Shown here: positions 46,240 to 49,561 of the stretch, piece by piece
Layout: each line of letters begins with the position of its first letter
Position numbering within the stretch: the first letter of the stretch is position 1
Origin: Scenedesmus sp. PABB004
Taxonomy: Eukaryota
NCBI GenBank assembly: GCA_014905635.1
Contig: JABVCE010000017.1
Coordinates: 186,001-250,000, forward strand
DNA length: 64,000 bases
Direction of reading: 5' to 3'
Notes under the pieces: generated by a model
What the model was told of the DNA's origin: nothing
Seen by the model: the letters and a program-made list of their open reading frames with translations, nothing else
The model's database searches: none
Made by a program: the position numbers and the translations under genes

Positions 46240-49200
46240 TCACCCGCGCGCGGGGCACGCCGCGTCGGCCGCGCCGGCGAGCTGCGCCGCCCAGTCGCGC
46301 GGGAGGCTGTCCCAGGGGTTTCCTGGCAGCGCGTCGGGGGTGACAAACACCCACCCCGCGCGGCGCTCCTTGGACAGGGCCAGCGCGGGCGCGAGGCTGC
46401 CGGGCGGCGCGGAGTGCACGAGGTGCCACAGCCGCTCGCGCGGCACGCCGGCGGTCCAGGGCGCCGGCGTCCAGCGCGCGTAGCTGGCGTAACTGCCCTC
46501 GAAATTGACCACCAGATCAAACGCGTCGCCCGCGCCCGGCGCCGAGGGGTCCAGGTAGCACGCCGGGCCGTCCGTGCCCCAGTTGAGCGCGGCGACACGC
46601 GGCGCGGCGCCTGGCGCGGCGTGCATGCGGCGCACGAGCGCCTGCGGCGAACGCGCGGCGGGCGGCGGAGGGCGCGCGGGTGGGCGGGCGGGCGCGCGTG
46701 CGCAGGCGGGGAACGCGCCTCGGCCCGGCGGCCTGCCCCTGCGCCCCCCCCCCCCCACCCCTGGCCGCGCCGCCCCAGCGGCCCCTGGCTGCCAGCCGGC
46801 CTGGCCAGCACGGCAGCCGGCCGCCCGCGCCTGATAGTAGAGCCGGCGCGCACAGGAGTCGCTGCCCTCATCCAAAAAGATGCCGCCCAGCTCAGGGTAC
46901 CTGGCGGCGGGGTTGAAGGGCTCAGGGCTCAAGGGCTGCTGCGCTCCAGGCCCCACGCGGCGCCGCCCCTGCGGCGCGCCGCGGCGGGGCCCGGACCGCG
47001 GCGCGCACCAGGAGAGCCAGCGCGAGACGTCGCGGCGCGCCGCGGCCGCGTCGCGGCGGCCGTAGCGCGTCGACACGTAGCCCAGAGTGGTCACGCCTGG
47101 CGGCGGCGGACGGCCGGCGGCGGCGGGAGCTTGTCAGTCAAGCCAATCAAACACTATCGTTCCAAGCTTCGAATGGCGAGCGGGCCGGGCGAGGTGTGCC
47201 GCGCCGCGCCCCGCGCACCCGCGCCGTGCAGCTCGGCGACCAGCCGGGCGTAGCTGCCCTGCTTGGCCGCGCCGGGGCCGTTGTTGGGGTCTGTGGCGAC
47301 GCGCGGCGCGGGGGCGGCGGCGCGGGCAGAGGCGCGGGACGTGTGTGGGCGCGCGTGGGCGCCGCGCCCGCCCTCCCCCCGGCGCAGCCCGGCGCCGCCC
47401 CGCCCGCCCAGCCCCGCCGCGGCGCTGCGGCGCCGCGGCGCACTCAGGATGACGAGCTGGCGCGGCCCCCCGGGCGTGGCGAGGCCCTGCCGGAACGCCG
47501 TCCACGCGCAGCCGGCGCCGTCGCAGGGGTCGACATACAGCGGCACGCCGACGCCCTGCCCGCAGCCCCCGCCGGGCGCCGGGCTCGGCGGCGGGCTCGG
47601 CGGCGGCGCGGCCGGCCCCGGCGATGGCGACGGCGACGCCCCGCCGGGCGGCGGCGGGCGCGGCGACGCCGGCGCGGGGGGGCCGCCGCCCGGCAGCGCG
47701 CAGCCGACCCAGGGCAGGCGGCGCAGGGCGAGGGCCTTGCCGATGGTGTTCGTCGGCGGGTAGCTCCCCACGGCCTGCGACAGGCGCGGCCGCGGCGGCG
47801 GCGGCGGCGCTCGCCCCTCCCTCCCTCCCTCTGGCGCGCACGGTGCCCGTCCGGCGCCATCTCCCGGCGCCGCGGTGCGGCGCGGCGCGGCGTGCGCGCC
47901 TGCGCGCAGGCGCCGGCCTGCAGCGTCGCATTGTCGCCCTTCCAGGCGTACTCCACGTTGAAGATCGGCCTGCCAGCTGGGCGCACGGCGGGGCGGGGCG
48001 GCGTGGCGGGAGGTATGCTTCGAGCCCTTGAGGGGAGACCTTGGCGCGCGCGGCGCGCGGCTCCCCTGCCCCCGCGCCCCTCCCCGCCGCGCTGCCCTCC
48101 ACGCCGCCGCGCTGCGCGCGCACCGTCGGCAAACGGCGCGAGCCGCCCGCACTCGCGGTACTGGTGGCACTGCTCGTTGATGGCAAAGTCCCAGAGCGAC
48201 TCAACCGACGCCCGGGTGACCAGGCCCAGCGTGTTTTTCAGGCCCACGCCCAGCCCCGCGGCGCGCGCGGCCTGCGGCGGCGCGGCGCGGTGCGGATGTT
48301 TGACGGGCGCTTGGTGTGGCGCGCGGGCGCGCGGCGGCGCGGCACGCTGGCCTCGCCGCCGCCGCCATCCGCCGGCCCCGCCCGCCCCGGAACCCAAAAC
48401 CCCGGCCCGCCCCGGCCCCCTAAACCCCGGCCCCCTGCCCACCTGCGAGAGAAAGGTCAGGTAGTCCAGCGCCGTCGCGGCGCTCAGGGGGAAGCCGGTG
48501 GCCGCCTCGTAGCCGTCTGTGTTGTCGGGGTCTGGGCGGCGGTTCAGGCGCGGGCGGTTTAGGGGTGGGTGGGGCAGGGTTTAGGAGGCGGGGGGTTTAG
48601 GAGGTGAGCGAGCTTGAGCGACAGCCCGGGCGGCCAGGGCTGACCAGGGCGAGAGAGGGAGGGGGCGCGGGAGCCCGCGCGGCGGCGGCGGGGCGCGGCG
48701 CGCGGCGCGCCGCAGCACCCCTCCTCCCAACGGGGCGCACCGACGGCGACGAAACCCTTGGCTGCGCAGCGCGCGATGCGCTGCGGGCGGCGCGGCGGTG
48801 GTGGCGGCGCAGCAGGGCCGGTCGGGCGCGGGCCCCGCCACCGCGGCGCGCCGCTGTCCGCACGCCGGGGGAGCGCAGCGCCCCCGGCGCTCCAAGCCCC
48901 GTGTCCCCTGCCGCCCGGTCTTAAACCCTTGACCCAAAACCCAGGCCGCCCCCTCCGAGCGCGCCTGGCGCATGATCTCCCGCACGCCAGCGCTGCGCGT
49001 GTCCACCCACGCCTCGCCCGGCCAGCCGTCGAGCGGCGCGCCGATGTCGGCGGGGGCGAACGACGCCGCGTCCTCGCGCCACGCCTCATACTGCGTGCTG
49101 CGGGATGGACGGGGCGCGGCGGGGGCGCAGCGGGCGGCGGGCCGGGCGGGTAAGCGAGCGCCCATAGAGTCCGGCGGGGCGGGAGCGCGGGCGCCGCCGC

Positions 49201-49561
49201 GCGCGCTGGTTGGGTGTCACCCCCGCCGGCGCCACCCCGCCCCCGCCCAGCGCCGGCGCGCGGCTCGCCTGAAGTAGCAGACCGGCACCGCGCCGGCGGC
49301 GCGCATCGCCGCGACCGTGGCGGCGCTGGTGGACTCGAGGTCGATTGAGTAGAGCCCGACGCCGGGCAGGGCGCTGCCGGGCCAGGCAAAGGCCTCGCCG
49401 AGCTGGTACTGCCACGCCAGGCCGGGCGCCGCCCACGGCGGCTGCTCCCCGGCGGCGCCGCCGGCGGCGGCCGCCGCCGCCAGGGCGAGCAGCAGGCGCA
49501 GCGGCGCGGCGCGGCACCGGCAGCGGCCGCCGCTGGTGCCGCTGCCCGCGGCCGGCGCCAT
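46240..49561 (-). CDS. Secreted two-domain glycoside hydrolase: GH114 (Ega3-like endo-alpha-1,4-galactosaminidase) + Pro/Ser linker + GH135/spherulin-4 (Sph3-like); about 11 exons
   Basis: GH114: WQYQLG...IDL...VCYF|S...EAWRED...LDGWPGEAWVDTRS...KGFVAV|DPDNTDGY...GLKN...DFAINEQC...PIFNVEY. GH135: VPLYVDP...VIL|NPNNGPG...LGYVSTRYG...GGIFLDE...LNWGT...VVNFEGSY...WHLVH...GWVFVT...NPWDSLP. Both domains lie in one continuous frame across the linker exon (ORF 47154..48170). Confidence 0.88.

What the first reader, a model, noticed from the sequence alone, without database searches (positions are those of the whole stretch)
46240..49561. GH114-GH135 fusion: both hydrolase families of the fungal galactosaminogalactan system in one algal protein
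Seen in sequence: a GH114 domain with acidic residues at the expected catalytic positions (DPDNTDGY, AINEQC) is joined by a PPPSPPPSP linker to a spherulin-4/GH135 domain (GIFLDE, VNFEG), within one exon and with no stop between them. Established knowledge: in Aspergillus, Ega3 (GH114; alpha-1,4-GalN) and Sph3 (GH135; alpha-1,4-GalNAc) are separate genes of the GAG cluster, and related enzymes act on bacterial Pel. Inference: one enzyme able to cut both deacetylated and acetylated blocks. This implies either an unrecognised GalN/GalNAc polymer in the algal wall or mucilage, or an anti-biofilm/anti-fungal enzyme. I do not know of a described algal example.
Basis: partly seen in the sequence, partly recalled or inferred. 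Interest (0 to 1): 0.78.

Follow-up and report, generated by a model that had tools for sequence, protein, structure and literature searches.

The report
Fused double galactosaminidase in green alga
A green alga has one real gene joining two enzymes that fungi use separately to cut their sticky galactosamine slime; related algae and some bacteria have the same join, but what the alga cuts with it is unknown.

Summary
On the minus strand (49561-46240) an 11-exon gene encodes a 580-aa protein. It is letter for letter the GenBank entry 'Spherulin-4 [Scenedesmus sp. PABB004]'. The parts in order are a hydrophobic leader, a GH114 domain (Pfam E 4e-66; Ega3 E 5e-44, TM 0.85), a 47-residue Pro-rich disordered linker, and a GH135 domain (Pfam E 2.5e-35; Sph3 TM 0.77).

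The catalytic residues of Ega3 (D189/E247) and Sph3 (D166/E167/E222) are kept as D158/E218 and D434/E435/E495. The end of GH114, the linker and the start of GH135 lie in one exon, so this is not a merged gene model.

The same fusion occurs in Tetradesmus obliquus, Hariotina reticulata and an unnamed relative. Independent GH114+GH135 fusions, in either order, occur in bacteria. GH114 in chlorophytes is in print. The fusion is not in the papers I could search, and none of them reports an assay of a fused form.

No synthase, deacetylase or epimerase was found in the window. The genome could not be searched.

Most likely this is an extracellular two-headed endo-alpha-1,4-GalN/GalNAc hydrolase. Its natural substrate (own wall polymer or microbial Pel/GAG) is open. 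It is a new variant of a known kind, of moderate interest.

The parts
46240..49561 (-). Whole coding region, start codon to stop codon. Exons: 49561-49269, 49097-48965, 48780-48741, 48531-48443, 48271-48124, 47976-47900, 47774-47444, 47290-47219, 47096-47009, 46900-46831, 46641-46240.
   Evidence: Hand model is identical to P0001, 580 aa. CDS GC is 0.773 and GC3 is 0.945; introns are 108-209 nt.
49448..49561 (-). N-terminal leader, aa 1-38: Arg-rich start, then the hydrophobic run LRLLLALAAAAAA. Probably a signal peptide, possibly a signal anchor.
   Evidence: Kyte-Doolittle 15-mer maximum of 2.04 for the window starting at aa 23, which is the only strongly hydrophobic stretch of the protein. 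Orthologues also have a hydrophobic N-terminus just before the conserved W. No signal-peptide predictor was available, so this is an inference.
47700..49414 (-). GH114 (Ega3-like) domain, aa 50-285, spread over exons 1-7.
   Evidence: Pfam E 4.4e-66. Ega3 6oj1 E 4.8e-44. Foldseek hit to 6oj1: TM 0.85, rmsd 2.6. This part has pI 4.85.
48524..48526 (-). Codon of D158 (the second D of DPDN). It corresponds to the Ega3 nucleophile Asp189.
   Evidence: Aligned with chain residue 148 of 6oj1_A. That is Asp189 if chain index plus 41 gives the residue number. Invariant in 7 of 7 algal sequences. Residue numbers are from PMC12054363 (passage).
48173..48175 (-). Codon of E218 (in AINEQC). It corresponds to the Ega3 acid/base Glu247.
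   Evidence: Aligned with chain residue 206 of 6oj1_A. Invariant in 7 of 7 algal sequences.
47444..47774 (-). Exon 7, aa 261-371. A single exon carrying the GH114 C-terminal tail, the linker and the start of GH135.
   Evidence: The frame is open throughout (ORF 47154..48200).
47559..47699 (-). Pro/Ser/Gly/Ala-rich linker, aa 286-332, of the hydroxyproline-rich-glycoprotein type.
   Evidence: 21 Pro, 10 Gly, 7 Ala and 6 Ser in 47 residues. pLDDT is below 50 for aa 291-329. The T. obliquus orthologue has an SP/KP-repeat linker.
46243..47558 (-). GH135 (Sph3 / spherulin-4-like) domain, aa 333-580, spread over exons 7-11.
   Evidence: Pfam E 2.5e-35. Sph3 5d6t/5c5g E 1.6e-10 with the single sequence and 2.6e-16 with the profile. 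Foldseek TM 0.77. This part has pI 8.65.
46867..46872 (-). Codons of D434 and E435 (in GIFLDE). They correspond to Sph3 Asp166 and Glu167.
   Evidence: Aligned with chain residues 116 and 117 of 5c5g_A, which are residues 166 and 167 if the offset is +50. Kept in 5 of 5 algal fused proteins. Residue numbers are from PMC10485009 (passage).
46498..46500 (-). Codon of E495 (in VNFEG). It corresponds to Sph3 Glu222.
   Evidence: Aligned with chain residue 172 of 5c5g_A, which is residue 222 at offset +50. Kept in the 3 of 3 algal proteins that reach this position.

Best explanation
This is one nuclear gene of a scenedesmacean green alga. It encodes an exported, two-headed retaining endo-glycosidase.

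The acidic GH114 head (Ega3-like) would cut alpha-1,4-linked galactosamine (de-N-acetylated) stretches. The GH135 head (Sph3-like) would cut N-acetylgalactosamine stretches. A flexible, probably O-glycosylated, proline-rich tether keeps both heads on the same partly deacetylated polymer.

Shown: gene structure, domain identity, folds, all five catalytic residues, and conservation of the fusion in related algae.

Inferred: export, substrate and synergy.

My odds:
- Real single fused gene: 0.9.
- Both heads act on alpha-1,4 GalN/GalNAc polymers: about 0.65.
- Natural target is a so far undescribed GalN/GalNAc-containing polymer of the alga's own wall or matrix, trimmed or released as Sph3 and Ega3 do for fungal galactosaminogalactan: about 0.4. 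The confidence figure refers to this last step.
For: Gene and fusion:
- The model equals the deposited protein.
- The junction lies inside exon 7.
- GH114 then GH135 is also found in T. obliquus P0003, in Hariotina P0004 and P0005, and in unnamed P0002.
- P0002 is an uninterrupted 759-aa ORF on a 3870-nt contig. For a gene with 10 introns here, that suggests a cDNA-derived contig (inference).

Native to the alga:
- 10 spliceosomal introns, GC3 of 0.945, and the same GC as the flanks.
- An algal GH114 clade with support 99.

Enzymes:
- Pfam, PDB and fold matches.
- D158/E218 and D434/E435/E495 sit at the proven catalytic positions.
- The GH114 part is acidic (pI 4.85) and the GH135 part is not (pI 8.65). 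This mirrors the charged Ega3 cleft and the less charged Sph3 surface described in PMC12054363 (passage).

Functional coupling of the two families:
- They are neighbours in the fungal GAG cluster (PMC9860509, sections read).
- They are neighbours beside a PelF equivalog in an actinomycete MAG (L080).
- They are fused independently several times.

An own-polymer role:
- In producers these hydrolases sit with the synthesis genes.
- Green algae keep several GH114 paralogues: 3 in Monoraphidium minutum, 2 in Hariotina, 2 in T. deserticola.
- The linker is of the algal wall-glycoprotein type (recalled knowledge of such proteins).
Against: - There is no biochemical datum for any fused member or any algal member in the papers searched.
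- No GalN/GalNAc polymer of Scenedesmaceae turned up. A broad wall review mentions galactosamine only for fungi (PMC12223506, passages). Galactosamine was 'not detected' among dissolved sugars of S. obliquus biomass (PMC3639090, passage; weak evidence).
- No glycosyltransferase, carbohydrate esterase or epimerase domain was found in 444 of the window's 460 ORFs of at least 90 aa. The last 16 ORFs were not scanned, and short exons can escape such a scan.
- The genome itself could not be searched.
- In T. deserticola the closest transcript-derived ORFs stop right after GH114: P0163, 292 aa, labelled 'complete'. A GH114-only product therefore exists in a near relative, or that transcript retains an intron.
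- Export rests on hydrophobicity alone.
Confidence: 0.4

Rival explanations
1. Same enzyme, foreign target. The alga secretes it to break cationic GalN/GalNAc exopolysaccharides of its neighbours (bacterial Pel, fungal galactosaminogalactan). This would let it escape biofilm or hyphal entrapment, or harvest amino sugar.
For: - Recombinant Ega3 and Sph3 disrupt Aspergillus and Pseudomonas biofilms (PMC10485009, passages).
- The first GH114 enzymes came from bacteria that degrade polygalactosamine (PMC12054363, passage).
- Aspergillus pellets capture Scenedesmus, and its wall is said to hold galactosaminogalactan (PMC11408997, passages).
- No partner synthesis gene was found in the window.
- No algal GalN polymer was found in print.
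Against: - There is no expression or induction datum.
- The algal GH114 clade is old and has several copies, which fits a housekeeping wall role as well.
- Where context is known, the two families sit with the producers' own synthesis genes (PMC9860509; L080).
Confidence: 0.3
2. Both heads are active glycosidases, but on another substrate of the algal wall or matrix, not an alpha-1,4 GalN/GalNAc chain. Family membership does not fix specificity.
For: - Few members of GH114 and GH135 are characterised (PMC12054363, passage).
- Brown algae carry about 5 GH114 genes per genome, and the passage I read names no substrate for them (PMC11468063, passage).
- Identity to Ega3 is 35% and to Sph3 26-27% over the aligned folds.
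Against: - All catalytic residues are kept, as is the acidic character of the GH114 part.
- Every activity reported for these families in the papers I read is an alpha-1,4-(N-acetyl)galactosaminidase (PMC12054363, passages).
- The repeated pairing of exactly these two families argues for one shared polymer type.
Confidence: 0.15
3. The fusion is not what the cell makes. Either there are two products (an alternative 3' end after GH114, or proteolysis in the linker), or the gene is silent.
For: - T. deserticola transcript-derived ORFs P0163 and P0015 end 6-11 residues after the last conserved Cys of GH114. In the tree they are sister to the fused T. obliquus gene, with support 98.
- The linker is disordered, so it could be a cleavage site.
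Against: - In this window no intron, stop or intergenic DNA separates the domains. Exon 7 runs through the junction.
- The architecture is kept in 5 of 5 scenedesmacean gene models or contigs that extend past GH114.
- Both domains keep their catalytic residues, which argues for selection on both.
Confidence: 0.05

Closest known systems
Ega3 of Aspergillus fumigatus (GH114, endo-alpha-1,4-galactosaminidase; PDB 6OJ1)
   Same: Same family and fold: E 4.8e-44, TM 0.85, 35% identity. The nucleophile Asp and acid/base Glu are kept. Three Cys are shared (CYF, NEQC, xEC).
   Different: Ega3 is a single-domain protein with an N-terminal membrane anchor, encoded in the five-gene GAG cluster (PMC9860509). 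The algal protein carries a GH135 domain behind a Pro-rich linker, and no partner gene was found within 64 kb.
Sph3 of Aspergillus (GH135, endo-alpha-1,4-N-acetylgalactosaminidase; PDB 5C5G/5D6T)
   Same: Same family and fold: Pfam E 2.5e-35, TM 0.77. The Asp-Glu pair and the second Glu are kept.
   Different: Sph3 is a separate, membrane-anchored protein required for GAG synthesis. Here the domain is the C-terminal half of a fusion. Identity is only 26-27%.
Bacterial GH114+GH135 fusions, with no assay reported in the papers I searched: Caldilineaceae MAG L001; Ca. Daviesbacteria L035; unnamed clusters P0010, P0014, P0022, P0037, P0041
   Same: The same two families in one polypeptide.
   Different: They have other origins. 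They fall outside the algal clades in both domain trees. Their domain order is often reversed (4 of the 5 unnamed clusters and L035). They often carry a GH114_assoc domain. They have no Pro-rich linker of the algal type and no introns.
PelA of Pseudomonas (GH166 hydrolase fused to a deacetylase)
   Same: A two-activity enzyme that processes a partly deacetylated alpha-1,4 GalNAc polymer. Its hydrolase fold is related (5tcb, Foldseek E 3e-10).
   Different: PelA pairs a hydrolase with a deacetylase, not two hydrolases. It belongs to a different GH family and is periplasmic.
Single-domain GH114 genes of green algae (Monoraphidium minutum, Micractinium sp., T. deserticola; Bracteacoccus in PMC11811186)
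   Same: Same algal GH114 clade: 17 rows, support 99.
   Different: No GH135 domain. PMC11811186 calls its GH114 'Bracteacoccaceae-specific'. My hits show GH114 in other chlorophyte families too. I did not test whether these are the same lineage as the Bracteacoccus gene.

Membership tests
GH114 (CAZy) / Pfam PF03537 | Significant sequence similarity to the family model and to a characterised member | tested here: met
   PF03537 scores 222.9 bits against a cutoff of 27. Ega3 6oj1 E 4.8e-44. An algal profile against 6oj1 gives E 5.4e-60.
GH114 (CAZy) / Pfam PF03537 | Catalytic Asp (nucleophile) and Glu (acid/base) at the positions of Ega3 Asp189 and Glu247 | tested here: met
   D158 and E218 align with chain residues 148 and 206 of 6oj1_A. 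Both are invariant in 7 of 7 algal sequences. Residue numbers are from PMC12054363 and PMC10485009 (passages). The chain-to-residue offset of 41 is my inference. Under it, both residues fall on the expected acids.
GH114 (CAZy) / Pfam PF03537 | (beta/alpha)8 barrel fold | tested here: met
   AlphaFold model, with 10-residue block-mean pLDDT 84-98 over aa 41-240 and 74-92 over aa 241-290. Best PDB match is 6oj1: TM 0.85, rmsd 2.6. This is a predicted structure, not a solved one.
GH114 (CAZy) / Pfam PF03537 | Endo-alpha-1,4-galactosaminidase activity | not testable with these tools
   Needs recombinant enzyme and GalN oligomers or deacetylated GAG.
GH135 (CAZy) / Pfam PF12138 Spherulin4 | Significant sequence similarity to the family model and to Sph3 | tested here: met
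   PF12138 scores 122.6 bits against a cutoff of 30.2. 5d6t E 1.6e-10. The profile gives 2.6e-16.
GH135 (CAZy) / Pfam PF12138 Spherulin4 | Acidic residues at Sph3 Asp166, Glu167 and Glu222 | tested here: met
   D434, E435 and E495 align with chain residues 116, 117 and 172 of 5c5g_A. Numbers are from PMC10485009 (passage). The offset of 50 is inferred, and all three fall on acids.
GH135 (CAZy) / Pfam PF12138 Spherulin4 | (beta/alpha)8-type barrel like Sph3 | tested here: met
   Foldseek hits to 5d6t/5c5g: TM 0.77, rmsd 3.4-3.5. 10-residue block-mean pLDDT is mostly 79-97 over aa 331-570.
GH135 (CAZy) / Pfam PF12138 Spherulin4 | Endo-alpha-1,4-N-acetylgalactosaminidase activity | not testable with these tools
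   Needs an enzyme assay.
Galactosaminogalactan-type or Pel-type biosynthetic gene cluster | Hydrolase genes lie beside a synthase (Gtb3/PelF), a deacetylase (Agd3/PelA) and an epimerase (Uge3) | tested here: not met
   Pfam scan of 444 of the window's 460 ORFs of at least 90 aa. The only families found apart from this gene were methyltransferase, aspartyl protease with saposin, RRM, RAP and GH1. Exon-sized pieces lower the sensitivity. Unlinked genes elsewhere in the genome could not be sought.

The most novel reading that the evidence does not exclude
Scenedesmacean algae, and perhaps core chlorophytes more widely, make an unrecognised cationic alpha-1,4 GalN/GalNAc exopolysaccharide. It would be a green-algal counterpart of fungal galactosaminogalactan, bacterial Pel and the galactosamine wall of Physarum spherules. 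This two-headed enzyme would be its dedicated processing or release hydrolase, for instance in autospore liberation or in the matrix that holds coenobia together.
Probability: 0.3. Interest if true: 0.75.

Novelty: new variant of a known kind. Interest (0 to 1): 0.45.

Why it matters
If the fused protein really carries both activities, it is a natural 'one-protein' degrader of partly deacetylated GalNAc polymers. These are the matrix of Aspergillus and Pseudomonas biofilms, so it could be a ready-made reagent.

For algal biology it raises a sharp, testable question. Green algae keep a clade of GH114 genes of their own, and Scenedesmaceae add GH135, yet I found no GalN/GalNAc polymer described for them. 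Either such a polymer exists in their wall or mucilage, or these algae actively cut the slime of their microbial neighbours.

The repeated, independent fusion of the same two families in algae and bacteria is also 'Rosetta-stone' evidence that GH114 and GH135 work on one polymer everywhere, not only in fungi.

Tried and rejected
- RNA evidence: no RNA holder was listed for 46240-49561, so read laying could not be used.
- Whole genome: none is held, so Gtb3/PelF, Agd3 and Uge3 homologues could not be sought outside the window.
- Algal-virus relatives: a viral-contig scan with the algal alignment gave 78 pattern matches, none of them a relative. tblastn against phages gave only 3 records with a GH135-like stretch, none algal.
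- ESM Atlas: it holds the same sequence and otherwise returned only single-domain clusters at scores of 0.82-0.84. Nothing was added.
- Earlier findings of this scan: none for this genome or sequence. One note on another genome did not bear on this report.
- Neighbour at 50.3-52.6 kb: a CGRCYELRC motif suggested an expansin-like gene, but Pfam found nothing in 6 ORFs at E up to 0.1. Dropped.
- Contamination: rejected because of the introns, the host-like GC3 and the algal clade.
- Merged gene model: rejected because of exon 7.
- One common origin of all fusions: rejected. The 7 non-algal fused rows lie across a branch with support 99 from the algal clade and are scattered in the GH114 tree. 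They also fall outside the algal group in the GH135 tree, with support 93.
- Donor of the algal GH114: not resolved. FastTree put the algal clade in a 62-row group (support 81) with fungal and Plasmodiophora rows and none of the 80 bacterial loci. IQ-TREE on 54 rows leaves the sister open. The bacterial loci were chosen by likeness to a bacterial query, so they are a biased sample.
- Papers not held: PMC4645995 (Sph3), PMC6746457 (Ega3) and PMC248268 (Physarum wall). I used reviews that cite them. Of the Physarum paper I saw only the title, in a reference list.
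Full report
**What is there**

The window is very GC-rich, 0.70-0.86 per 2 kb and 0.79-0.80 around the finding. On the minus strand, pieces of one protein lie in different frames. I joined them at AG acceptors and GT or GC donors. The result is 11 exons, 1743 nt and 580 aa, from ATG at 49561 to the stop at 46242-46240.

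A database search with the last exon alone returned one protein, P0001. It is 580 aa, 100% identical, carries PF03537 and PF12138, and is named by NCBI 'Spherulin-4 [Scenedesmus sp. PABB004]'. It equals my model letter for letter.

Four of the ten introns use GC donors. These are supported because the alignment to Ega3 runs without gaps across the exon 1/2 and exon 2/3 joints. CDS GC3 is 0.945 and introns are 108-209 nt. This is a native nuclear gene, not a contaminant.

**Domains and residues**

- Pfam: GH114 at aa 50-259 (E 4.4e-66) and Spherulin4/GH135 at aa 336-567 (E 2.5e-35).
- Solved relatives: Ega3 6oj1 (E 4.8e-44) and Sph3 5d6t/5c5g (E 1.6e-10). A profile of seven algal sequences gives 5.4e-60 and 2.6e-16.
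- An AlphaFold model built from a 40-row alignment has mean pLDDT 84.2, with only aa 1-17 and 291-329 below 50.
- Its best PDB matches are Ega3 (TM 0.85, rmsd 2.6) and Sph3 (TM 0.77).

PMC12054363 (passages) gives Asp189/Glu247 as the proven nucleophile and acid/base of Ega3. PMC10485009 (passages) gives Asp166, Glu167 and Glu222 for Sph3. Counting along the printed alignments, these fall on D158 and E218 and on D434, E435 and E495. The chain-to-residue offsets (41 and 50) are my inference, and under them all five land on the expected acids.

D158 and E218 are invariant in 7 of 7 algal sequences. The DE pair is kept in 5 of 5 fused algal proteins. The GH114 part is acidic (pI 4.85) and the GH135 part is basic (pI 8.65). 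This matches the contrast between Ega3 and Sph3 surfaces described in PMC12054363.

**Is it one gene?**

Exon 7 (47774-47444, aa 261-371) carries three things in one open frame:
- the conserved C-terminal tail of GH114 (I271, K273, L277, P281, C285);
- the 47-residue linker (21 Pro);
- the first strands of GH135.

Each domain is itself split by introns.

The same order is found in T. obliquus (P0003, 584 aa), two partial Hariotina reticulata proteins (P0004, P0005) and an unnamed 759-aa protein P0002, which has GH114 followed by two GH135 domains.

Against a universal fusion, two transcript-derived ORFs of T. deserticola stop just after GH114. They are sister to the fused T. obliquus gene (support 98).

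**How common is the fusion?**

The exhaustive search found 7432 relatives at E up to 0.001. Of the 150 listed, 130 have GH114 only, 13 have GH135 only and 7 have both. Two of those 7 are algal. The other 5 are unnamed and non-algal, and 4 of these have the reverse order.

Among the best 80 of 446 prokaryotic loci:
- 2 hold both domains in one ORF (a Caldilineaceae MAG and a Ca. Daviesbacteria MAG);
- 1 actinomycete MAG holds them as neighbouring ORFs beside a PelF equivalog (140 bits against a cutoff of 100) and a weak Agd3-CBM87 match.

Many relatives also carry 2-5 tandem copies of one family.

**Trees**

Algal GH114 domains form a 17-row clade (support 99). It contains 11 rows that the sources name as green algae (Scenedesmus, Tetradesmus, Hariotina, Monoraphidium, Micractinium) and 6 unnamed rows, among them the fused Logan protein P0002 that I had grouped with the algae. 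All 7 non-algal fused rows lie across that branch and are scattered. In the GH135 tree, the 5 algal domains group with 6 unnamed rows (support 93), apart from the bacterial fusions. The fusion therefore arose more than once. The donor of either algal domain is not resolved.

**Context**

Pfam scans of 444 of the window's 460 ORFs of at least 90 aa found no glycosyltransferase, esterase or epimerase. No genome is held.

**Literature**

- GH114 in chlorophytes is stated in PMC11468063, and a 'bacteria-derived, Bracteacoccaceae-specific' GH114 is reported in PMC11811186 (passages of both).
- No paper with both GH114 and GH135 treats an alga or a fusion.
- Searches for spherulin with alga, polygalactosaminidase with alga, galactosaminogalactan with green alga, and CE18 with microalga gave nothing on point.
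- I saw no supplements.

**Reading**

The molecular picture is well supported up to the assay: an exported two-headed endo-hydrolase for partly deacetylated alpha-1,4 GalNAc polymers. The natural substrate is open. I lean slightly towards an undescribed polymer of the alga's own (0.4) over microbial Pel/GAG (0.3).

It is a new variant of a known kind, with interest 0.45.

Noticed in passing
window 49268-49098, 48964-48781, 47899-47775, 46830-46642 (minus strand): Four of the gene's ten introns begin with GC instead of GT (GCGAGC, GCGCGC, GCGCGC, GCGCGG). All ten end in AG. The GC donors of introns 1 and 2 are backed by the gap-free alignment to Ega3 across those two joints, and all four are used in the deposited protein. 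An unusually high share of GC-AG introns may be a trait of this ~80% GC genome.
   Followed up: partly
window 18887-23227 and 23938-28294: A tandem duplication of about 5.06 kb, with sampled 285-300-nt stretches 89-100% identical. No Pfam domain was found in its ORFs.
   Followed up: partly
L080:3420-11671 (uncultured Actinomycetes MAG): A Pel/GAG-like locus. It holds a 735-aa protein with a weak Agd3-CBM87 match (27.2 bits, just under the cutoff of 27.6), a GH114 ORF, a GH135 ORF and a PelF equivalog (NF038011, 140 bits). This is a bacterial locus mirroring the fungal pairing of the two hydrolases with a synthase.
   Followed up: partly
P0002 (unnamed, 759 aa) and P0003 (T. obliquus, 584 aa): P0002 has GH114 followed by two GH135 domains. 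The second has DQ in place of the catalytic DE. The 'linker' of the T. obliquus model contains a stray piece of a GH135 C-terminus (aa 266-343), so that gene model may miss exons of a further GH135 copy.
   Followed up: partly
P0163 and P0015 (Tetradesmus deserticola, transcript-derived): The closest relatives from a transcriptome encode GH114 only and stop 6-11 residues after its last conserved Cys. This could be a real short form, a lost fusion or a retained intron.
   Followed up: partly
P0008 (Plasmodiophora brassicae, 1579 aa) and others: Proteins with 2-5 tandem copies of GH114 or of GH135 are frequent among the best hits. Of the 30 proteins scanned, 13 had two or more Pfam stretches of one family. 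Other partners seen were GH8, GH113, fn3 and PD40.
   Followed up: no
window 58257-61790 (-), 30923-34078 (-), 42147-45324 (+), 56283-56603 (+), 2919-4847 (+): Neighbouring genes by Pfam on ORF pieces: a GH1 beta-glucosidase, an aspartyl protease with a saposin insert, an RRM protein with long Pro/Ala/Gly/Gln runs, a RAP-domain piece and a methyltransferase.
   Followed up: no
window 36000-44000: The GC-richest stretch of the window (0.81-0.86). It has open frames of 600-1200 codons on both strands and no Pfam match. Coding status is unknown.
   Followed up: no
phage records MK061416.1 / NC_073471.1 (Rothia phage Spartoi, gene 21) and KX853513.1: Phage 'hypothetical proteins' with a GH135-like stretch, 27-34% identity to aa 337-564. 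They may be depolymerases.
   Followed up: no
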